This document shows, in pieces, positions 55,598 through 64,000 of a stretch of DNA of 64,000 bases. The stretch lies in sequence record OP197928; one strand, given 5' to 3'. Within the stretch, counting starts at the first letter, position 1. The number at the start of each line of letters is the position of its first letter. Origin of the DNA: Shigella phage A2. Below the pieces are notes generated by a model. That model saw only the letters and a program-made list of their open reading frames with translations. It ran no database searches and had not been told where the DNA came from. A program made the translations under genes and the position numbers.

Positions 55598-57655
55598 CTA
55601 CATCTTGAACTTTTTAGACATTCCGTTGATGTTAACCAAAGAAGCCAAGATTTGAGAAACTTCGTTTTTCTCTTCTTTTGATTCTTCTACAAGGAATTGA
55701 TTAAACCCAGCCATTGGACGAACTTCACCAGTTTCCATCAGATGATCGCCATCATATACCGATTCTTCTAATTGTTCAGAAGGAGGAACGATTGTGCCTT
55801 CGATTAGATACTTGTTATAAGCAGTTTCTTTCATCATGTACGTGCTTACTTTATTAATCTTCAACAAAATTCCACGCGGTAAAATAACTTCAGCTTCTGA
55901 TGGAAATCCTGATAAATGACCTGGAACGATAACTTTAATTCGCTCAGCTCCTTTTATTACCATACCTACGCTAGTTTCAGCATCTTCATTAGCATATGCA
56001 GAATGACTGCCCATATGCATTAAATCTTCAGCATCAACAGAACCTTCTCCTTCACCAGAAAATACTGCGCCGGAATCATCTAGAGCCATATAGTTTTTAC
56101 CATGCTCACCGAAGATATTTGGTTTAAGCGATGTTGATACGAAGTTCTTGAAATAAAACATTTTATTTTCAATATTATGACGTAAAGTTTTAAAGGTAAC
56201 TTCTTGTCCACGATAAAGCGTAGTTCCTGGAGGAAGAACTGAACCTTTGGCAAAGGCAGAATCCATTGTCTCGATGTGTTTAATAGCTCGTTCCATGTAT
56301 TCTTCACGGGTAGAATCTGGTTTACCCAAGAGGAACGAGTTCATTTCAACATATGAATCTGCACAATAATCTTCAATTACATCAGACTCAGCCTGAGTCA
56401 GTCCTTTTGGAGTTACTTCGGTGCTTGCGTATTCATATGCCTGAGCAGCAGATTCATTAATCAATTTATAAATGCCATTCATGACAAATTGAATAATAGC
56501 TACCTTTTCGTCTGGCGTGGCTTTAGAACCTTTAACTAAATCATTGATAATTTTCTTAATAACATCAAAGCTATTAGAAATATTAATGTCAGCGAGATCG
56601 CTCAAAATTTTATCGGTTTTATAATCAAAGAATTCTTTATTCTTTAAATATTCTTGAGAACCTTGATATGTTATATCGCTCTGCAGCTTGATAGATGGAT
56701 CACGTAAACGTGCATGGGCCAATGCAATATGATTTCGGAAGCTTTCTAGTTCATAATCATTAGATTTAAAACGAGAAGCACTCCTCATACCACCGATAGC
56801 TCCTTTGCCGAAGTTTGAACCAATCTGAATAACGCCAGAGTTCATTGGTCCTTCTGCTTTATATACCGGAACTTTAGATTCAAACTCTTGATATTTCTTA
56901 GCGGCGAAGCTATCACCCTGAAGTGAAGCATCGACAGTAGAATATTGAGCTTGTGCTGCTAATCGACGACTAATTTTAGTTTTCTGAATAACAGCTTGAT
57001 CCGTGCGCTTATCATTTTCTAGAGCAATAGAAGCGGCAACAGCAACAGCTTTAGGAACAGCATTACCTGTTTTAACGTCTACATAAACATCACCAACCTT
57101 TGATTCAACTTTTGTGAATAACTCAGTTGAAATAGGAGGTACACCTGGAATGTCTTCTAAATTAGCAGTTTTACGATAAACCATAATATATGCATACTTT
57201 TTATCATAGTCCCAGATTTCCTTTAAAAGAACATATCGACCTGCTCCTTTAGTACGTACTAAACGGTCAGCAATAACTTGCATTTGACGAGCAGCGCCAT
57301 TTGTTTTACTTTTTAGTACGCGGAATAGGCATGCGTCAATTTTATACTGTTTCATTGTTTGAAGAGCAGTATCAAAAACCGCATTAATGACACCAATTGG
57401 ATTTCCACCCAAGTTTTTAAGTTTAACTAATGATAGTTTCTCATTAACACCTATCATTACGATATGCATCATTTTATCGCCTGGCTTAACGTTTTTATTT
57501 GTATCACCGCCAGAGGTGTATGTACAAAATCTAAATCCAGGAAGCACACTTTCTTCACCGGCTTGAATAGCAAAAATTTGAGGTATTTTATGCTTAGGAT
57601 TTAAGTTAACAACCGGCGCCGAAGCGCCGTCAAATAATTCTGTAATAAGTTCCAT
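55598..57655 (-). CDS. Alt-like ADP-ribosyltransferase (paralog 1)
   Basis: 685 aa; N-terminal about 230 aa co-linear with the adjacent paralog (MELITELFD...KIDAC...YDKKYAYI...); C-terminal R-S-E ART signature: YRGQ, NFVSTSL, EAEVILPRG. Confidence 0.85.
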   Translation of the reverse strand: MELITELFDGASAPVVNLNPKHKIPQIFAIQAGEESVLPGFRFCTYTSGGDTNKNVKPGDKMMHIVMIGVNEKLSLVKLKNLGGNPIGVINAVFDTALQTMKQYKIDACLFRVLKSKTNGAARQMQVIADRLVRTKGAGRYVLLKEIWDYDKKYAYIMVYRKTANLEDIPGVPPISTELFTKVESKVGDVYVDVKTGNAVPKAVAVAASIALENDKRTDQAVIQKTKISRRLAAQAQYSTVDASLQGDSFAAKKYQEFESKVPVYKAEGPMNSGVIQIGSNFGKGAIGGMRSASRFKSNDYELESFRNHIALAHARLRDPSIKLQSDITYQGSQEYLKNKEFFDYKTDKILSDLADINISNSFDVIKKIINDLVKGSKATPDEKVAIIQFVMNGIYKLINESAAQAYEYASTEVTPKGLTQAESDVIEDYCADSYVEMNSFLLGKPDSTREEYMERAIKHIETMDSAFAKGSVLPPGTTLYRGQEVTFKTLRHNIENKMFYFKNFVSTSLKPNIFGEHGKNYMALDDSGAVFSGEGEGSVDAEDLMHMGSHSAYANEDAETSVGMVIKGAERIKVIVPGHLSGFPSEAEVILPRGILLKINKVSTYMMKETAYNKYLIEGTIVPPSEQLEESVYDGDHLMETGEVRPMAGFNQFLVEESKEEKNEVSQILASLVNINGMSKKFKM

Positions 57656-57658
57656 GAT

Positions 57659-59755
57659 TTATCCTTGAACGAACTTGTAAGGCATGTTTGCAATATCTAT
57701 GCAAGACGCAATAATTCCAAGAGATGATTCTACTTTTTGTTTAACATTTGATGAAACAAATGATGCAAAGTCAACTCTGTCTTCTATTTCAATATCACCT
57801 GTCATTGTAACTACTTCACCAGTTTCCATTAGACGGTCACCGTCATAAATTACTGATTCGGTGAGTTCTTCCGTAGTCATAACTTCAGCTTGAATGAGTT
57901 TTGTATTATTAGATGTTGTTCCGTCATTATTAGAAGCATCAGTTATTTTATTAACTTTGACCATCAATCCTCGTGGTAGAATAACTTCAGCTTCTGTTGC
58001 TATTCCGAGACTTCCTGGATATACAACATTAACTTTATGAGCTCCATCAATTGCCCATCCTATTTGAACTTTAACGTATTCTGGATTTTCTTTATACGCT
58101 CTTATTTCGTTTGGATTAATAGTTATTCCTTCTTCATTTTTATCAACTGTTAATTCATTACGAGCTTCTGGTTCTAAAAGACCAATGCCAGCATGTGTAA
58201 TTCCAAAACGTCCAAAAATGATAGGAGTTAAAGAAGTAGATACAAAATTTCTGAAATAGAACACTTTATTTTTAACTAGTGCTTCGTATATAGGAGCAGT
58301 CATACTTTGAGCACGATAAACTGTAATGCCTTCTGGTATACGGTCACCATTTTCAAAAGCTGAATCTAAGTTATTTATAGCAGATTCAATTTCTTTTTCA
58401 CTCATTACATCATATCGTTCTGGATTGTAGCGTCCTAAAAGAAGATTATTGATGTCAGTATATCCTGAACCGCAATACTCTCTAATGCCGCGCTTTTGTG
58501 ATGGAGTATATTTAGAACCATCACGGGCAATAGTAATATCAATCATTGGACCTGCACCAATTCCAGAAAAACTATAAATCATTCGTTTGAGGAATTTAGT
58601 TTTTGCTGCGTTCCAGGAATTTTTAGTTATTTCTTCCCAGACTTCATCTGGCTGCCCTTTACGAGTTTTATTATGTTTATCAAGCCAAGTATCTTTATAT
58701 TCTTCAAAGAATTTATTAATAGCTGCTGCATACTTCTCTAAACATTTTATTGAAGTAGTCGGTTCATTTTTAATCGCATTAAGAATTACATCTTTAATTT
58801 TTTCAGAAACTTCATTAACCTCACTTTTTGAAAAGAATTTATAGTCATAATGAAGTTCATCTGCGGTTCCTTCGGCAATAATTTTTGCTGCCTTAGTTTT
58901 AGAAGCTAATGAATTAATTCCAAGTTTCATTTCTTCTGCTTCGGGAATTAAAGGAGCGGTAGCAGGTTTATTGAAATTAGCTGCGGTAGATTCATATTTC
59001 TGGAATAATTCACTTTCAAATCTAGAAGATTCCAATGACTGACTTTGTGCAATTGCTCTACGGGAAATTTTAACTTTAACGATTACAGCTTGGTCAGAAC
59101 GTTTATCATTTTCTTGTGCAATAGATGCTGCAATTGCCTCATTTTTAGTTACTTGAGCTCCAGTATCTTTATTGATATAAACATCGCCGACTTTCGATTC
59201 AACTTTAGTAAAGAGCTCGGTGCTAATTTCCGGAACTCCTGGAATGTCTTCTAGTGATACATTTTTGCGATGTATAAGAATATATGCATACTTTTTATCA
59301 TAATCCCAGAGTTCCTTAAGAAGGACGTATCTGCCACCTGAACGACTGCGGATAAGTCTATCAGCAATAACTTGAATTTGTCGAGCTTGACCAGCAGTTT
59401 TAGACTTAAGAATACGAAGCATACAGGCATCAATTTTATACTGACGCATCGTCTGCATCGCAACAGTAAAAACTGAATTGATGTAATTAATTGGGCTTGG
59501 ACCGAGACCTTTTAATTTAGCAATTGAACCTTTAGCAGTTAATGTAAAAGGAACAATATGCATCATTTTATCGCCCATCTTTAAATCGCGATTAGTATCA
59601 CCTCCAGATGTATAGGTACATAAACGAAAGCCTGGTTGTTCAATTGCGTCATCAACATGAACTGAAAAAATTTGTGGTATTTTCTTCTTTGGATTTAAGT
59701 TTGTAATCGGAAGAGTAGTATCTTCGTCAAATAATTCTGTAATGAGTTCCATCAT
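57659..59755 (-). CDS. alt: Alt ADP-ribosyltransferase (paralog 2, adjacent to gene 30 side)
   Basis: 698 aa; shared N-terminal module; ART motifs YRAQ, NFVSTSL, EAEVILPRG; late promoter upstream; assignment of alt to this copy rather than paralog 1 is by position only. Confidence 0.8.
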   Translation of the reverse strand: MMELITELFDEDTTLPITNLNPKKKIPQIFSVHVDDAIEQPGFRLCTYTSGGDTNRDLKMGDKMMHIVPFTLTAKGSIAKLKGLGPSPINYINSVFTVAMQTMRQYKIDACMLRILKSKTAGQARQIQVIADRLIRSRSGGRYVLLKELWDYDKKYAYILIHRKNVSLEDIPGVPEISTELFTKVESKVGDVYINKDTGAQVTKNEAIAASIAQENDKRSDQAVIVKVKISRRAIAQSQSLESSRFESELFQKYESTAANFNKPATAPLIPEAEEMKLGINSLASKTKAAKIIAEGTADELHYDYKFFSKSEVNEVSEKIKDVILNAIKNEPTTSIKCLEKYAAAINKFFEEYKDTWLDKHNKTRKGQPDEVWEEITKNSWNAAKTKFLKRMIYSFSGIGAGPMIDITIARDGSKYTPSQKRGIREYCGSGYTDINNLLLGRYNPERYDVMSEKEIESAINNLDSAFENGDRIPEGITVYRAQSMTAPIYEALVKNKVFYFRNFVSTSLTPIIFGRFGITHAGIGLLEPEARNELTVDKNEEGITINPNEIRAYKENPEYVKVQIGWAIDGAHKVNVVYPGSLGIATEAEVILPRGLMVKVNKITDASNNDGTTSNNTKLIQAEVMTTEELTESVIYDGDRLMETGEVVTMTGDIEIEDRVDFASFVSSNVKQKVESSLGIIASCIDIANMPYKFVQG

Positions 59756-59788: not shown

Positions 59789-59806
59789 AAAGGCCCGAAG
59801 GCCTTT
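59789..59806 (-). terminator. UUCG-tetraloop hairpin between gene 30 operon and alt
   Basis: aaaggcc-cgaa-ggccttt (UUCG on minus RNA) with flanking A/T tracts. Confidence 0.55.
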
Positions 59807-59993
59807 AATAATCTATTGGTAAGAGAGTACGATATATTTCAAACTTTGGACCTTTTTCATAGGCATCAAATGTTTCTGTGAATTTATTATAAGCATATGC
59901 ATCTATAAATTCAATCATAATTTGTGATACAGAAGTAGAAACATCTCCACCTTCTTTTTGAGCAACGACAATTGTTTCTAAGTAAGCTTTCAT
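59805..59993 (-). CDS. hypothetical small protein
   Basis: 62-aa ORF overlapping the gene 30 stop by 4 nt. Confidence 0.5.
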   Translation of the reverse strand: MKAYLETIVVAQKEGGDVSTSVSQIMIEFIDAYAYNKFTETFDAYEKGPKFEIYRTLLPIDY

Positions 59994-61453
59994 AGACCAG
60001 TTACCTCATGAAAATCACCAAATACATCCTCGAATGTATTAGCTTTAGTTTTATCTTCACGTAAACGAATCGCAATTGGAAGAAATAATTTTACGTAATC
60101 AGTGCGGCCATCAGATTTTAACCAACCATTGCATTCGCACTCTAGAATTTTTCCAATATAATAATTTTGGTTTTCCATAATGCGAGTACGGTCAAGTTCA
60201 TGTGATTTTACGCCGGCTTTATCTTTTAAGCCTGAACCAGCATTTACTTTAATTTTTCCACACTCTGATTCAAGAATAAATCCACCTGCTTTAGTAGGGT
60301 CTTTACGGTGAGGATAAATTCCTACAATTTTTAAATCAACATCAATTACTTCTTTAAATTTATAGAGATTTTTTGAACGAGCATTTTCCCACAATCCATC
60401 GGTATTTTTGAGAATAATACCTTCAAGACCTTGGTCAATATACTTTTTATAAATTACCTTAGCTTCATCTAGGTTATTTACTACCTGGTTTTCAATTAAA
60501 ATTACTTTATCATATCCTGATGTCATTTGTTCTAGTTTAGAAAAACGTACATCATATTTTAAACGAAACGCCGGAAGACCGTATATTTCTACCAACGGGA
60601 CATAATCCCAGACCTGAAACTTCATGCATTCGGCTTCTTTTTCGGAAATGGTTCCTTTTAAGGATTTATTGGCGATTCCATTAGAAGCAGTACGAGATTC
60701 CGCTACTTCGGCGAATTCTTTAGCTTTACTAATTTCAGGATAAGCATCAAAAAGAAAATCTAGGCCTTCTGGTTCCTTTTTAACTTGCTCATGGTATACC
60801 AATTCGCCATCAATTAACACACCTTCTGGATGAATCTGGCGGGCTTCAGCAGTCATTTTGATTAATTCTTCCTTAAGAAGATCTAATCCTAGATATTCAT
60901 TACCAGCTCGTGATAAAAGACGAACATCATCTAATTCATCGCCTCGGACTTCAGCAAAACACCGAGCTCCATCTGCTTTTAACTGTGCAAAGGCTGGAAA
61001 TTTGATATTCTTATTAATGCCTTTTTCATCATAAGAACTTGCCAGCATTTGAGGTTGTTCAGGAATTAAACCTGGCCAAACTTTGTTTGCAATAGATACT
61101 GAAGCACCGCATTCAAGGTCTCGCATCATCACTCGACGCAAAACTTCAACATCATCCTTTTTACCATCGGTGATATATCCAGTCAATTCCTCAATTGCAG
61201 CATTTCCGGTCAATTTCCGAGTAGCTAACGTGAATTCAATGAAGTCAAGCATATCGGTAATGGTCAGCATTCCAAAACTCTGGGTAGCAATACCAGGTTT
61301 AGGCCATTTCTTGATATAATACTGTAACCCACGAGAATAAGTCAGACGATATACCCGTTTAAGCAATTCATTATCTTTATTCTTTTCAAGAATTGCTTGC
61401 TTCTGCTTAGTTGATCCAATAGATGCTATTTCATTCAGAATTTTAAGAATCAT
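59990..61453 (-). CDS. 30: ATP-dependent DNA ligase gp30
   Basis: 487 aa; adenylation motif KADGAR (motif I) and other nucleotidyltransferase motifs. Confidence 0.95.
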   Translation of the reverse strand: MILKILNEIASIGSTKQKQAILEKNKDNELLKRVYRLTYSRGLQYYIKKWPKPGIATQSFGMLTITDMLDFIEFTLATRKLTGNAAIEELTGYITDGKKDDVEVLRRVMMRDLECGASVSIANKVWPGLIPEQPQMLASSYDEKGINKNIKFPAFAQLKADGARCFAEVRGDELDDVRLLSRAGNEYLGLDLLKEELIKMTAEARQIHPEGVLIDGELVYHEQVKKEPEGLDFLFDAYPEISKAKEFAEVAESRTASNGIANKSLKGTISEKEAECMKFQVWDYVPLVEIYGLPAFRLKYDVRFSKLEQMTSGYDKVILIENQVVNNLDEAKVIYKKYIDQGLEGIILKNTDGLWENARSKNLYKFKEVIDVDLKIVGIYPHRKDPTKAGGFILESECGKIKVNAGSGLKDKAGVKSHELDRTRIMENQNYYIGKILECECNGWLKSDGRTDYVKLFLPIAIRLREDKTKANTFEDVFGDFHEVTGL

Positions 61454-61719
61454 TGCTCATCCTTCAAAGTTTGGTTTACAGCTCTATTATAAATCAATTC
61501 ATCATTAAGCTCAGGCAAAGACTTATGATATGTAGTTCTAACTTTATTTCCTTGCATCCAGTGCTTGATATAAATGAAACCTTGCTCTACACATTTTTTA
61601 AAAATTCGTTCGTCTTTTTGAGCTCGGAATTCTGGATTGCATCTAAAAAATTGATTTACGTGACCGTAATCACGTGTAGTATTACCTTCATTTTCATAAA
61701 TAGTGTGAACGACAAACAT
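61450..61719 (-). CDS. hypothetical protein (30.1 position)
   Basis: 89-aa ORF. Confidence 0.55.
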   Translation of the reverse strand: MFVVHTIYENEGNTTRDYGHVNQFFRCNPEFRAQKDERIFKKCVEQGFIYIKHWMQGNKVRTTYHKSLPELNDELIYNRAVNQTLKDEQ

Positions 61720-62582
61720 TAGAATGCTCCTTGGAAAATATTATCACCACTAGTAAATCTATTAAAATACCCTGCATCACCAGGCTTAGTATAACTCCAC
61801 GTATGGAATGGATTCATATGATACGGGTGTGTATAATATGGATTATATGGATGTGTATAATATGGATTATACGGATTAAATCCAGGAGTTCTCCAGGTAG
61901 TGTTCCAACGAAAAGAATCGTTTTTAACCATCTTCTCAATTACATCTTTTATAGCTTTTTCACTATCAAAACTTTCTTTATTTTCCTTCGGTGAAAAAAG
62001 CTTATTTTCTACATCATTCCATGTATAAACTCGCTGAGCGGTTTTTGGAATATTGTCACGCTCTCCTCGCGCCATCCAATAAACAGGAACATTTAATATT
62101 TCACTCGCATGATCGCAGTGGTGAGCAAGATCGTCAATATAACAAATTACGTTATATTTCTCTTTTGCCTTTTTGAATAACTCTTCTTTTGAAGAATCAT
62201 GACCACACATCATTACTTCTGAGAAGGCACCAGGAAAAAGAGCATTCAAATTAAATTGACGATTCAACAGAGCGTCAATAGAATCACCCAACGCTGTAAC
62301 AGCTACAAAATTATAATCTTCTTTTAATTTGTTAATTACGCACAGGGCGTCTTTATATGGAGACAAATAACGAATAAAATCTGAACGATTGTATTTTTCA
62401 ATTAACTTGACGCCAAGTTCTTCATCACAATTAAAGAGTTTACCCGGAGAAATAAATTTCTCATCTTGGATCATTTTTAAAATATGTTCTAACGGAAGAT
62501 TATATTTCTGAGCAAAATAAGGAAGGCCTGATTGCCAGCTTAAACATACTCCATCAATATCAGTTAAAATAGTAGGCTTCAT
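61719..62582 (-). CDS. HAD-superfamily hydrolase-like protein with C-terminal Tyr/Pro-rich repeat (30.2 position)
   Basis: 287 aa; N-terminal motif ILTDIDGV (HAD motif I DxDG); C-terminus NPYNPYYTHPYNPYYTHPY encoded by a tandem 24-bp DNA repeat. Confidence 0.65.
   Translation of the reverse strand: MKPTILTDIDGVCLSWQSGLPYFAQKYNLPLEHILKMIQDEKFISPGKLFNCDEELGVKLIEKYNRSDFIRYLSPYKDALCVINKLKEDYNFVAVTALGDSIDALLNRQFNLNALFPGAFSEVMMCGHDSSKEELFKKAKEKYNVICYIDDLAHHCDHASEILNVPVYWMARGERDNIPKTAQRVYTWNDVENKLFSPKENKESFDSEKAIKDVIEKMVKNDSFRWNTTWRTPGFNPYNPYYTHPYNPYYTHPYHMNPFHTWSYTKPGDAGYFNRFTSGDNIFQGAF
61827..61874. repeat. tandem 24-bp repeat (2 copies) inside 30.2-like gene
   Basis: gtgtgtataatatggattatatgg / atgtgtataatatggattatacgg. 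Confidence 0.7.
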
Positions 62583-63043
62583 AGAGAGTCTCTTAATAGA
62601 TTTAACACATCAATAAATTCAGCTTCGGTTAGTATTGTATCATCTTTTGTTAGACCACTAGCCATGCTGTGCTTCAAAACTTTTCCTTTCGAGGCTTGTA
62701 ATGCATCGCGAAAGCCCTTGTTTTGGAACGCTGCTTCAAAATATGCATTTGTGTATAATTCTTTCCATGCTTCGGAATATCTTGAAAACGGAGTTCCAAG
62801 CCAGAACAACGTGCCACGGTCCTGAGCTCTAGCATAAGCTCGTCCAGCTTGTTGGGCGGCAAGCCCGGATAACCCAAATATACGACGCTGTTGTTCAACA
62901 TTTTTCACCTTGCATCCTTGGAGGAATCCTTCGAGACCTCCAAATTGGATACCGTCCATAACAAAAGGCCATTGGGCGAAATTACTTAATGCACATGATG
63001 GCCATCTAAAATTGCTTCTAATCTCTAGCTCAGACATTTTCAA
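62579..63043 (-). CDS. NADAR/YbiA-like domain protein (30.3 position)
   Basis: 154 aa; ALSNFAQWPF...DG...LEGFLQGCK resembles the NADAR/YbiA signature (FSNFxxWP ... EHYFQAxK). Confidence 0.6.
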   Translation of the reverse strand: MKMSELEIRSNFRWPSCALSNFAQWPFVMDGIQFGGLEGFLQGCKVKNVEQQRRIFGLSGLAAQQAGRAYARAQDRGTLFWLGTPFSRYSEAWKELYTNAYFEAAFQNKGFRDALQASKGKVLKHSMASGLTKDDTILTEAEFIDVLNLLRDSL

Positions 63044-63245
63044 TACTTATAATTTCAACATCAGCCCAATGACCATAACTTGGTAAACGGTCTTCAATAG
63101 ATAATCCGCCATCATATTTAAGCATTTTAATTGTCATAATATATGGCTCTAAATGGTCTTCAGTGAGCGGAGAGACATCAGTCACACGATAAGTAACTTC
63201 GACCATTTCCGTGCCCAGTAATTTCTGGATTAATTTCTTAAACAT
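63030..63245 (-). CDS. hypothetical protein
   Basis: 71-aa ORF. Confidence 0.5.
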   Translation of the reverse strand: MFKKLIQKLLGTEMVEVTYRVTDVSPLTEDHLEPYIMTIKMLKYDGGLSIEDRLPSYGHWADVEIISIENV

Positions 63246-63249
63246 TTTA

Positions 63250-63537
63250 TTAAAATCTCATCTGAAAACCGTGTGATTTAACATTACCGCCGCCGATATC
63301 AGAAATGTTAATTTCACGCGCAATTGAAGGGTCAATGTCAATTTCACGATTAAGTTTAGTGATAGCTAAAGTATCGCGGCCATTTACAGTACGGAACTCT
63401 AAAGGGCAGACTACATTAACGTAGTTTTTAATTGATTCACTGGTAGGTTGCAAATGAGCAGGAAGGTCTTTAGGTGCCTTAGAGAAAACCACTTCACAGA
63501 AATTTTTGCGGGTATCAAAATAAGTAGTCATAAACAT
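63250..63537 (-). CDS. hypothetical protein
   Basis: 95-aa ORF. Confidence 0.5.
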   Translation of the reverse strand: MFMTTYFDTRKNFCEVVFSKAPKDLPAHLQPTSESIKNYVNVVCPLEFRTVNGRDTLAITKLNREIDIDPSIAREINISDIGGGNVKSHGFQMRF

Positions 63538-63553
63538 AGTATTTTCCTCAGTA

Positions 63554-63569
63554 AGGGGCCGAAGCCCCT
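63554..63569 (-). terminator. UUCG-tetraloop hairpin (third identical copy)
   Basis: aggggccgaagcccct followed by cattttatttt. Confidence 0.5.
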
Positions 63570-63578
63570 CATTTTATT

Positions 63579-63944
63579 TTAAATATCAAATTCGTTAAGA
63601 ACTACATCAAAGATTGCTTCAAGATGCTCAGGTTTAGCTCTGTTACTCAAAATATGACGAATCCAAGTTTTAACCAGAAGCTTGCGATTAACGCCATTCC
63701 AGCAAGGATGAGTCCCTAAATCGCGTTGACGAAAATCATCATCCAAAGCGATTTTAAAAGAAGAACCTTCTTTCGTGATTGAAACCGTGATGCCATTTTC
63801 AAATCGCATATAAACGTAGTTAGGAGTCATATACTGTTCAATTTCGCATACTGATCCATTTTGATGTTTCCAAAGGCAGATAGTATCAATAGAACCTGCA
63901 ATACCGTTAGAAACATATTTACGTTCAAAGTTGATGTAGTTCAT
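63579..63944 (-). CDS. hypothetical protein
   Basis: 121-aa ORF. Confidence 0.5.
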   Translation of the reverse strand: MNYINFERKYVSNGIAGSIDTICLWKHQNGSVCEIEQYMTPNYVYMRFENGITVSITKEGSSFKIALDDDFRQRDLGTHPCWNGVNRKLLVKTWIRHILSNRAKPEHLEAIFDVVLNEFDI

Positions 63945-64000
63945 TTTTATTCTCCGAGATGTTTAATTGCGGTACAGGTATATAATATCATATCCTGTAC

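What the first reader, a model, noticed from the sequence alone, without database searches (positions are those of the whole stretch)
61719..63043. NADAR-like and HAD-like enzymes upstream of DNA ligase, near the Alt genes
ORF 62579..63043 carries a NADAR/YbiA-like signature (SNFAQWPF...DG...EGFLQGCK). NADAR enzymes are reported to hydrolyse ADP-ribose from guanine bases, reversing DarT-type DNA ADP-ribosylation, so in a phage this is a plausible counter-defence against DarTG-like systems. The adjacent HAD-like ORF (ILTDIDGV motif) has an unusual Tyr/Pro-rich C-terminal repeat, and both sit with DNA ligase, suggesting a DNA-damage-reversal module.
Basis: partly seen in the sequence, partly recalled or inferred. 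Interest (0 to 1): 0.55.

Follow-up and report, generated by a model that had tools for sequence, protein, structure and literature searches.

The report
T4 adfN (NADAR) and 30.2 phosphatase
This stretch of a T4-type phage holds the already characterised anti-DarTG1 enzyme AdfN (gene 30.3), which strips ADP-ribose off DNA, followed by gene 30.2, a conserved but unstudied phosphatase that published transposon data show is not needed for that counter-defence.

Summary
The window is a Tequatrovirus (T4-like phage). The flagged ORFs are T4 genes 30.3 and 30.2, upstream of 30.1 and DNA ligase (gene 30).

**gp30.3.** It is 97% identical to T4 gp30.3, which is AdfN ("anti-DarT factor NADAR"). AdfN is a guanine-specific DNA ADP-ribosylglycohydrolase shown by experiment to defeat DarTG1 (Nat Commun 2025; Toxins 2024). 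The window copy is full length and keeps E36, K43 and the phage-type H123. Its model matches the three solved NADAR structures.

**gp30.2.** It is a genuine HAD phosphatase.
- All four catalytic motifs are invariant in the family.
- It is nearest to 5'(3')-deoxyribonucleotidases (NT5C).
- It carries a disordered, hypervariable Pro/aromatic-rich tail with a 24-nt tandem duplication.
- Its substrate is unknown.

**The "DNA-damage-reversal module".** This is not supported.
- In T4 transposon sequencing on DarTG1, only 30.3 and 30.4 are depleted, and 30.4 is probably a polar effect. Gene 30.2 (log2FC −0.12) and 30.1 are neutral.
- In KVP40-like phages the 30.2 orthologue sits beside nadV, away from both NADAR and ligase.
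- De-ADP-ribosylation of a base needs no ligation.

**Verdict.** Already known and of low interest. The function of gp30.2 remains a small open question.

The parts
62579..63037 (-). Gene 30.3 = adfN. It encodes a phage-type NADAR DNA ADP-ribosylglycohydrolase of 152 aa with an ATG start at 63037. Key codons are E36 at 62930-62932, K43 at 62909-62911 and H123 at 62669-62671.
   Evidence: 97% identical to T4 gp30.3, full length. PF08010 E=1.5e-68. AF2 pLDDT 92.9. Top Foldseek hits are YbiA 2b3w, G. lovleyi NADAR 8bat and P. nicotianae NADAR 8bau. Experimental function of the T4 orthologue is given in PMC11825919, PMC11257639 and PMC11125620. UniProt names the T4 protein 'Anti-DarT factor NADAR'.
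61998..62582 (-). Gene 30.2, catalytic core (aa 1-195). It is a C1-capped HAD phosphatase closest to 5'(3')-deoxyribonucleotidases. Motif I is D8-x-D10, motif II is T96, motif III is K132 and motif IV is D150-D151.
61722..61997 (-). Gene 30.2, C-terminal extension (aa 196-287). It has a short helix at aa 208-220. From about aa 229 (nt 61722-61898) it is a disordered Pro/Trp/Tyr/Asn-rich tail, and it ends in a locally conserved GDNIFQGAF.
   Evidence: pLDDT is below 50 over aa 229-287. The tail is short (≤30 aa beyond the core) in 41 of 101 homologues and longer than 60 aa in 50. Pro is 11-14% in tails against 4% in the core. Length alleles of 278, 279, 284 and 287 aa occur among Tequatroviruses.
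61821..61876 (-). 24-nt tandem duplication encoding (Y)NPYYTHP units inside the 30.2 tail.
   Evidence: TRF reports period 24, 2.3 copies, 90% match, score 98. The region is a 30-nt insertion plus a cluster of substitutions relative to T4, while the flanks are nearly identical.
61450..61719 (-). Gene 30.1 (DUF3045, 89 aa). It lies between 30.2 and ligase. Its start overlaps the 30.2 stop (TAATG).
   Evidence: PF11243 E=2.3e-63. Junction sequences are shown. A natural 30.2-30.1 fusion exists in a metagenomic relative, P0014.
59990..61453 (-). Gene 30, ATP-dependent DNA ligase (487 aa).
   Evidence: 99% identical to T4 gp30 by tblastn. T4 annotation.
63030..63245 (-). Gene 30.4 (71 aa). Its stop overlaps the adfN start by 8 nt (ATGTCTGA), so the two are probably translationally coupled.
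   Evidence: In T4 transposon sequencing, 30.4 insertions are mildly depleted on DarTG1 (log2FC -1.79, adjusted p 0.014), which is consistent with a polar effect on adfN.
57659..59755 (-). alt, the Alt ADP-ribosyltransferase (698 aa). It is context only and not part of the mechanism.
   Evidence: 70% identical to T4 Alt.

Best explanation
The region is part of one tightly packed early gene block of a T4-type phage, in the order 30.4-30.3-30.2-30.1-30, with overlapping stops and starts.

Gene 30.3 is adfN.
- Its product is a small NADAR-fold N-glycosidase.
- During infection it cuts ADP-ribose off the N2 of guanines that the host toxin DarT1 has placed on phage DNA. Replication can then proceed and DarTG1 defence fails.
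- This is shown by experiment for the 97%-identical T4 protein. For the window copy it is inferred from identity and intact catalytic residues.

Gene 30.2 is an independent enzyme.
- It is a Mg-dependent HAD phosphomonoesterase with a closing C1 cap.
- Its nearest relatives are 5'(3')-deoxyribonucleotidases, so it most likely dephosphorylates a nucleotide-like small molecule. That substrate call is an inference.
- It carries a fast-evolving disordered tail of unknown role.

The adjacency to ligase and Alt reflects conserved T4-family gene order, not a shared DNA-repair pathway.
For: AdfN identity:
- The window is 98.9% identical to Shigella phage SH-1 and matches 727 phage records, nearly all named T4-like coliphages and relatives.
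- gp30.3 shows 147/152 identities to T4 gp30.3 with an identical C-terminus.
- E36 and K43 were shown to be essential in T4 AdfN. H123 is the phage-NADAR hallmark. All three are present, and E36 and H123 are invariant and K43 nearly invariant in 48 homologues.
- Fold match to the solved NADAR structures.
- Deleting adfN sensitises T4 and T2 to DarTG1 by about four logs. Purified AdfN removes ADP-ribose from DNA.
- Transposon sequencing confirms the requirement.

gp30.2:
- In the profile alignment to mouse cdN, W16, F43 and Y64 align with F20, F46 and Y67. From my own memory of the cdN/mdN structures, these are the base-stacking residues.
- The family has 622 representatives at 50% identity with E<=1e-10.

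Independence of the two genes:
- 30.2 is neutral on DarTG1.
- The genes are separated in KVP40-like phages.
Against: - No assay exists for the window's own proteins.
- AdfN(T4) does not work outside a T-even infection. The authors suspect an extra T-even protein, so the mechanism is incomplete.
- NADAR and a HAD gene are adjacent in many Straboviridae. In KVP40-like phages the NADAR is followed by a different HAD, of the NT5C family. This leaves room for a looser functional link.
Confidence: 0.85

Rival explanations
1. gp30.2 is the missing T-even-specific helper of AdfN. It would either clear a nucleotide product or recruit AdfN through its tail, so the pair would form one counter-defence unit.
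For: - AdfN(T4) works only in T-even infections, and an additional T-even protein is suspected.
- The 30.3 stop and 30.2 start overlap as ATGA.
- NADAR-HAD adjacency recurs in Acinetobacter, Morganella, Aeromonas, Slopekvirus and Yersinia phages.
- In KVP40-like phages the NADAR is directly followed by an NT5C-family HAD.
- The two genes have near-identical genus distributions: 1438 and 1510 phage records.
Against: - In T4 transposon sequencing on DarTG1, insertions at 71 sites in 30.2 are neutral (log2FC -0.12, adjusted p=1), while 30.3 is at -7.25. Only two genes are significant.
- Purified AdfN acts alone in vitro.
- HAD occurs without a neighbouring NADAR in three loci. NADAR occurs alone in Sinorhizobium phage phiN3.
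- T4-family genomes are globally syntenic, so adjacency is weak evidence.
Confidence: 0.05
2. gp30.2 is a DNA-end 3'-phosphatase that prepares nicks for the neighbouring ligase. This is the end-healing and sealing module the first reader suggested.
For: - The HAD gene lies directly upstream of ligase in Acinetobacter phage, Shewanella phage Thanatos-1 and metagenomic T4-like contigs. It stays within 700 nt of ligase in a rearranged contig.
- There is a weak hit to phrog_415, polynucleotide kinase (E=0.0012).
Against: - The model has a helical C1 cap over the active site. By established HAD structure-function rules this goes with small substrates, whereas the T4 Pnkp phosphatase is capless.
- These phages already encode Pnkp a few kb away.
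- The nearest sequence relatives are NT5C nucleotidases.
- The KVP40-clade orthologue is not near a ligase.
- 30.2 is non-essential whereas ligase is essential.
Confidence: 0.07
3. gp30.2 acts in NAD/ADP-ribose-related or other nucleotide-based host-phage conflict. For example, it might dephosphorylate a nucleotide signal, a toxic nucleotide analogue, or a breakdown product of ADP-ribose or NMN. This would be independent of DarTG1.
For: - Its orthologue throughout the KVP40 clade sits beside nadV (NAMPT), a second NAPRTase-like gene and radical-SAM/QueC genes.
- It resembles NT5C, with aligned base-stacking aromatics.
- The hypervariable tail looks like an arms-race feature.
- The gene is non-essential in the laboratory yet very widely conserved.
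Against: - The KVP40 gene is on the opposite strand to nadV, so the linkage may be incidental.
- The HIDEN-SEQ text reports no phenotype for 30.2 with the tested defence systems, M9 medium or clinical isolates.
- There is no biochemical data.
Confidence: 0.25

Closest known systems
T4 AdfN (gp30.3; UniProt NADAR_BPT4), the phage subfamily of NADAR ADP-ribosylglycohydrolases
   Same: 97% identity over all 152 residues. Same gene order. E36, K43 and H123 are present, and so is the C-terminal helix that RB69's inactive allele lacks.
   Different: Five substitutions (S67A, V82T, P89E, I104F, I125M), none at known catalytic positions. Activity has not been measured for this allele.
DarG1 / BC4488-type NADAR antitoxins (G. 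lovleyi NADAR, PDB 8bat) and E. coli YbiA (2b3w)
   Same: Same fold (TMq 0.58-0.69) and the same SNFA...E.F.Q..K motif. Same chemistry on guanine-ADP-ribose, according to the papers.
   Different: - Only 15-18% identity, and His replaces Asp or Glu in the last strand.
- The gene is an orphan with no linked toxin.
- AdfN(T4) cannot replace DarG1 in uninfected cells.
- The window protein has no direct PF08719 hit.
5'(3')-deoxyribonucleotidases cdN/mdN and bacterial NT5C-like proteins (PF06941; PDB 2jao, 4yih, 3bwv)
   Different: - The window protein does not reach the Pfam NT5C threshold.
- The family has its own invariant residues: S18, S67, Y76, D78, R108, N111 and R172.
- It has a 90-aa extension with a disordered hypervariable tail.
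- The substrate is unknown.
T4 Pnkp (PseT) phosphatase domain
   Same: A HAD-superfamily DxDxT phosphatase encoded in the same genome region in T4-like phages. Weak phrog_415 similarity.
   Different: Pnkp's phosphatase is capless and fused to a kinase, and it acts on nucleic-acid ends. gp30.2 is capped, stand-alone, and closer to nucleotidases.

Membership tests
Phage NADAR (gp30.3/AdfN subfamily, Pfam PF08010) | Significant match to the family profile above the curated cut-off | tested here: met
   PF08010 E=1.5e-68, 229.3 bits against a cut-off of 36, covering profile positions 1-138 of 138.
Phage NADAR (gp30.3/AdfN subfamily, Pfam PF08010) | NADAR alpha+beta fold | tested here: met
   AF2 pLDDT 92.9 and pTM 0.88. 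The only credible Foldseek PDB hits are YbiA 2b3w (E 9e-5, TMq 0.69), 8bat and 8bau.
Phage NADAR (gp30.3/AdfN subfamily, Pfam PF08010) | Catalytic Glu and Lys (T4 AdfN E36 and K43) and the phage-type His in the last beta-strand | tested here: met
   LEGFLQGCK and VLKHS are present. E36 and H123 are invariant and K43 nearly invariant in 48 homologues. Their roles are described.
Phage NADAR (gp30.3/AdfN subfamily, Pfam PF08010) | Intact C-terminal helix, which the inactive RB69 allele lacks | tested here: met
   The full 152 aa are present, ending ...LNLLRDSL exactly as in T4. The model has a helix at residues 138-151.
Phage NADAR (gp30.3/AdfN subfamily, Pfam PF08010) | Hydrolysis of guanine-linked ADP-ribose on DNA, and rescue from DarTG1 | not testable with these tools
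   Shown for the T4 orthologue only.
General NADAR domain (Pfam PF08719 / DUF1768) | Direct profile match | tested here: not met
   The window protein has no PF08719 hit at E<=1. The link is indirect. The KVP40-type homologue hits PF08719 at E=0.0018. P0178 carries both families. The family profile hits YbiA at E=0.006.
HAD superfamily phosphatases | Four catalytic motifs: DxDx[TV], S/T, K, and DD | tested here: met
   D8, D10 with V12, K132, D150 and D151 are invariant, and T96 is nearly invariant.
HAD superfamily phosphatases | Rossmannoid core with a cap inserted after motif I (C1 type) | tested here: met
NT5C 5'(3')-deoxyribonucleotidase family (PF06941) | Profile match above the gathering threshold | tested here: not met
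   The window protein has no hit. Eleven of 53 homologues hit weakly, the best at E=1.2e-4. The distant family member P0363 just passes at 25.5 against 24.8 bits. This makes gp30.2 a sister clade of NT5C rather than a member.
NT5C 5'(3')-deoxyribonucleotidase family (PF06941) | Aromatic base-stacking pocket in the cap | tested here: inconclusive
   W16, F43 and Y64 align with mouse cdN F20, F46 and Y67 in a weak profile alignment (E=0.07). The role of these cdN residues is recalled from memory and could not be verified in the paper library.
Polynucleotide 3'-phosphatase (T4 Pnkp type) | Capless (C0) HAD core giving access to nucleic-acid ends | tested here: not met
   The model has a C1 cap. 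The only similarity is phrog_415 at E=0.0012.

The most novel reading that the evidence does not exclude
gp30.2 represents a large, uncharacterised phage clade of NT5C-like phosphatases that removes a nucleotide-type molecule used by a host defence. The molecule could be a signal, a toxic analogue, or an NAD/ADP-ribose-derived product. The hypervariable disordered tail would then be an arms-race interface. A weaker variant of this reading is that gp30.2 helps AdfN redundantly with another T-even factor, which would escape single-gene transposon screens.
Probability: 0.15. Interest if true: 0.5.

Novelty: already known. Interest (0 to 1): 0.15.

Why it matters
The headline claim, a phage NADAR that undoes DarT DNA ADP-ribosylation, was published in 2024-2025 for the T4 orthologue. 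This window adds only another intact allele.

Two residual points have some value.
- gp30.2 is one of the most widely conserved non-essential T4-family genes. It occurs in about 1,400 phage genomes and has 622 distant cluster representatives. It has an intact active site but no known substrate or phenotype.
- Published transposon data already exclude gp30.2 as the "additional T-even protein" that AdfN is thought to need. That narrows the search to essential or redundant genes.

Tried and rejected
- **Single-sequence search against solved structures.** Nothing useful for either protein. Family profiles were needed.
- **NCBIfam.** No hits.
- **Literature on gp30.2.** Searches for "gp30.2" and for 30.1/30.2/30.3 with T4 found no functional study. 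The T4 genome review (PMC150520) is not held.
- **cdN/mdN base-pocket residues.** I could not verify these from a paper.
- **Promoter and terminator scan of 59.5-64 kb.** No better than shuffled sequence, so it gave no operon boundaries.
- **Fusion partners of distant gp30.2 homologues** (P0273, P0326, P0223, P0266). No Pfam domains, so no functional clue.
- **C-terminal GDNIFQGAF as a sliding-clamp-binding peptide.** Considered and dropped. The C-terminal residues are not conserved across genera, and the idea rested on memory alone.
- **Overlapping ORF 30.3' as a real gene.** Rejected. It is less conserved than the main frame, and no similar product is found in distant homologues.
- **hmC-DNA specificity as the reason for AdfN's T-even restriction.** This was the preprint's view. 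The published version superseded it with the T4-GT7 result.
Full report
**What the window is.** Bases 59800-64000 match 727 phage records, nearly all named T4-like coliphages and relatives. The best is Shigella phage SH-1 at 98.9%. Against the annotated T4 genome the minus-strand genes are:
- alt paralogue, 55598..57655
- alt, 57659..59755
- alt.1, 59805..59993
- gene 30, DNA ligase, 59990..61453
- 30.1, 61450..61719 (DUF3045)
- 30.2, 61719..62582
- 30.3, 62579..63037
- 30.4, 63030..63245
- 30.6 and 30.7 further upstream

These assignments rest. Consecutive genes overlap by 1-8 nt (ATGTCTGA, ATGA, TAATG, ATGA). The block is therefore co-transcribed and probably translationally coupled. A consensus promoter and terminator scan was no better than shuffled sequence.

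**Observation check.**
- The NADAR-like ORF was listed from a TTG at 63043. T4 annotates the ATG at 63037, and only that start puts the published catalytic residues at E36 and K43.
- The HAD-like ORF begins MKPTILTDIDGV.
- The Tyr/Pro-rich repeat is a 24-nt unit in 2.3 copies at 61821..61876.

**Gene 30.3 is adfN.**
- The protein is 147/152 identical to T4 gp30.3 and ends identically.
- It matches Pfam PF08010 at E=1.5e-68.
- A profile of 48 homologues hits E. coli YbiA across the SNFA-DG-E.F.Q..K motif at E=0.006.
- An AlphaFold2 model (pLDDT 92.9) has only three credible PDB neighbours: YbiA, Geobacter lovleyi NADAR and Phytophthora NADAR bound to ADP-ribose.

The function is already established for the T4 protein.
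- gp30.3 was renamed AdfN.
- Deleting it makes T4 and T2 about 10^4-fold sensitive to DarTG1.
- Expressing it rescues RB69, whose own allele is frameshifted.
- E36A and K43A abolish rescue.
- Purified protein removes ADP-ribose from DarT1-modified DNA.
- An independent study showed hydrolysis of guanine-ADP-ribose in vitro. It also noted that phage NADARs carry His in the last strand. The window has this residue as H123, which is invariant in my alignment.
- UniProt already names the T4 entry "Anti-DarT factor NADAR".

**Gene 30.2 is a real HAD phosphatase of unknown substrate.**
- The window protein has no Pfam, NCBIfam or single-sequence PDB hit.
- One hundred close homologues share an N-terminal core of about 195 aa.
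- In 53 diverse members D8, D10, K132, D150 and D151 are invariant and T96 nearly so. These are the four HAD motifs. Family-specific residues are also invariant (W16, S18, Y64, S67, Y76, D78, R108, N111, R172).
- The model is very confident for residues 1-195.
- The architecture is a Rossmannoid core with a helical C1 cap.
  - The family profile's best PDB hit is mouse cytosolic 5'(3')-deoxyribonucleotidase.
  - Eleven of 53 members weakly hit PF06941.
  - A distant family member passes the NT5C cut-off.
  - The structural hits with the best target-normalised TM-scores are deoxyribonucleotidases (3bwv, 4yih, 2jao).
- In the profile alignment W16, F43 and Y64 align with the residues that, from my memory of the cdN/mdN structures, stack on the base. 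I could not verify this from a paper.
- A profile search of 1.84 billion representatives finds 622 at E<=1e-10. Most of those listed are tail-less proteins of 190-215 aa.

I conclude, with about 0.9 confidence, that gp30.2 is an active phosphomonoesterase. With about 0.45 confidence, its substrate is nucleotide-like.

**The tail.**
- Residues from about 229 to 287 are predicted to be disordered.
- Across the family the extension beyond the core is short (≤30 aa) in 41 of 101 proteins and longer than 60 aa in 50.
- It is enriched in Pro (11-14% against 4%) and in Trp.
- It aligns only in patches, such as W(R/K)TPG and G.IEY..NQPT.
- Among near-identical Tequatroviruses the core is almost invariant, but the tail has at least two allele types and lengths of 278, 279, 284 and 287 aa.
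- The window's exact 287-aa allele occurs on 115 contigs.
- This is a slippage-prone, fast-evolving segment. Whether that reflects relaxed constraint or diversifying selection cannot be decided here.

**Is there a NADAR-HAD-ligase module?** Some evidence points to linkage.
- The order NADAR, then 0-2 small ORFs, then HAD, then ligase recurs in Acinetobacter, Aeromonas, Slopekvirus and Yersinia phages. In Morganella phage MP1 the NADAR and HAD genes are adjacent.
- Both genes occur in about 1,450-1,500 phage records with the same genus distribution.
- In KVP40-like phages the NADAR is directly followed by a bona fide NT5C-family gene (PF06941 E=4e-11). That gene aligns weakly to the 30.2 profile.

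More evidence points against.
- T4-family genomes are syntenic overall.
- The HAD sits with ligase, with no NADAR within ±5 kb, in Shewanella phage Thanatos-1 and two metagenomic contigs.
- NADAR stands alone in Sinorhizobium phage phiN3.
- The true 30.2 orthologue of the KVP40 clade (hhalign 99.6%, E=5e-24) lies beside nadV, a second NAPRTase-like gene and radical-SAM/QueC genes. It is far from both NADAR and ligase.
- Decisively, the T4 HIDEN-SEQ transposon data set (Data S6, control versus DarTG1) reports only two significant genes:
  - 30.3, log2FC -7.25.
  - 30.4, log2FC -1.79. This is probably polar, because its stop overlaps the adfN start.
  - 30.2 is neutral (71 sites, log2FC -0.12, adjusted p=1), and so is 30.1.
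- 30.2 is also non-essential, with 72 of 72 sites hit, whereas ligase is essential.
- Chemically, removing ADP-ribose from guanine N2 leaves intact DNA, so no ligation step is needed.
- A capped HAD is a poor candidate for acting on DNA ends.

**An open question this touches.** AdfN(T4) does not neutralise DarT1 in uninfected cells and does not rescue T5 or Bas25. T4-GT7, which lacks DNA modifications, is still protected. The authors therefore suggest an additional T-even protein is required. gp30.2 is the obvious neighbour to suspect, but the transposon data argue against it unless it is redundant with another factor.

**Verdict.**
- The central finding is correct and already known.
- The HAD annotation is correct at the fold level.
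- The "module" interpretation is not supported.
- Novelty is "already known" and interest is low.
- The only loose end is the substrate and tail function of gp30.2.

Noticed in passing
window 55598..57655 (-) and 57659..59755 (-): There are two full-length Alt-type ADP-ribosyltransferase genes in tandem. One is 70% and the other 41% identical to T4 Alt, and they are 41% identical to each other. T4 has only the degenerate fragments alt.-1 and alt.-2 at that position.
   Followed up: partly
window 62674..62901 (-), inside adfN in the +1 frame: The T4-annotated overlapping ORF 30.3' is open here too (75 aa). It is only 82.7% identical to T4's, against 96.7% for the main frame, and no similar product exists in distant homologues. 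It is probably not a real gene.
   Followed up: yes
window 63030..63245 (gene 30.4) and T4 transposon data: In the published T4 screen, insertions in 30.4 are depleted on DarTG1 (log2FC -1.79, adjusted p 0.014). The 30.4 stop overlaps the adfN start by 8 nt in both T4 and this window. This suggests a polar or translational-coupling effect rather than a second counter-defence gene.
   Followed up: partly
window 63245..63250: Gene 30.5 of T4 is absent here. Gene 30.4 is followed directly by 30.6.
   Followed up: no
window 63554..63569: A perfect GC-rich hairpin lies between 30.7 and 30.6. On the transcribed minus strand it reads AGGGGC-UUCG-GCCCCU, with a UUCG tetraloop.
   Followed up: no
homologues of gp30.3 (P0104-P0118, P0155, P0206): Many natural T4-like phages carry truncated adfN genes (86-126 aa) or adfN fused to upstream genes such as 30.7 and 30.8. 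The counter-defence gene seems to be lost or broken often. Many Tequatrovirus records also match only residues 1-144.
   Followed up: no
L008 6007..6961 (Vibrio phage phi-pp2); L012 and L013 (Vibrio phages D484 and KVP40): KVP40-like phages carry two HAD genes. A canonical NT5C deoxyribonucleotidase lies immediately after the NADAR, next to genes 47/46. The true 30.2 orthologue lies beside nadV (NAMPT), a NAPRTase-like gene, and radical-SAM and QueC-like genes.
   Followed up: partly
P0014 (metagenomic contig, 302 aa): This is an in-frame fusion of a tail-less 30.2 core with 30.1 (DUF3045, E=8e-15). It is either a natural fusion or a sequencing frameshift.
   Followed up: no
protein cluster of P0001: The 90%-identity cluster that holds gp30.2 also lists 152-aa gp30.3 proteins as members. 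The two are unrelated, so they were probably chained together through a fused gene call.
   Followed up: no
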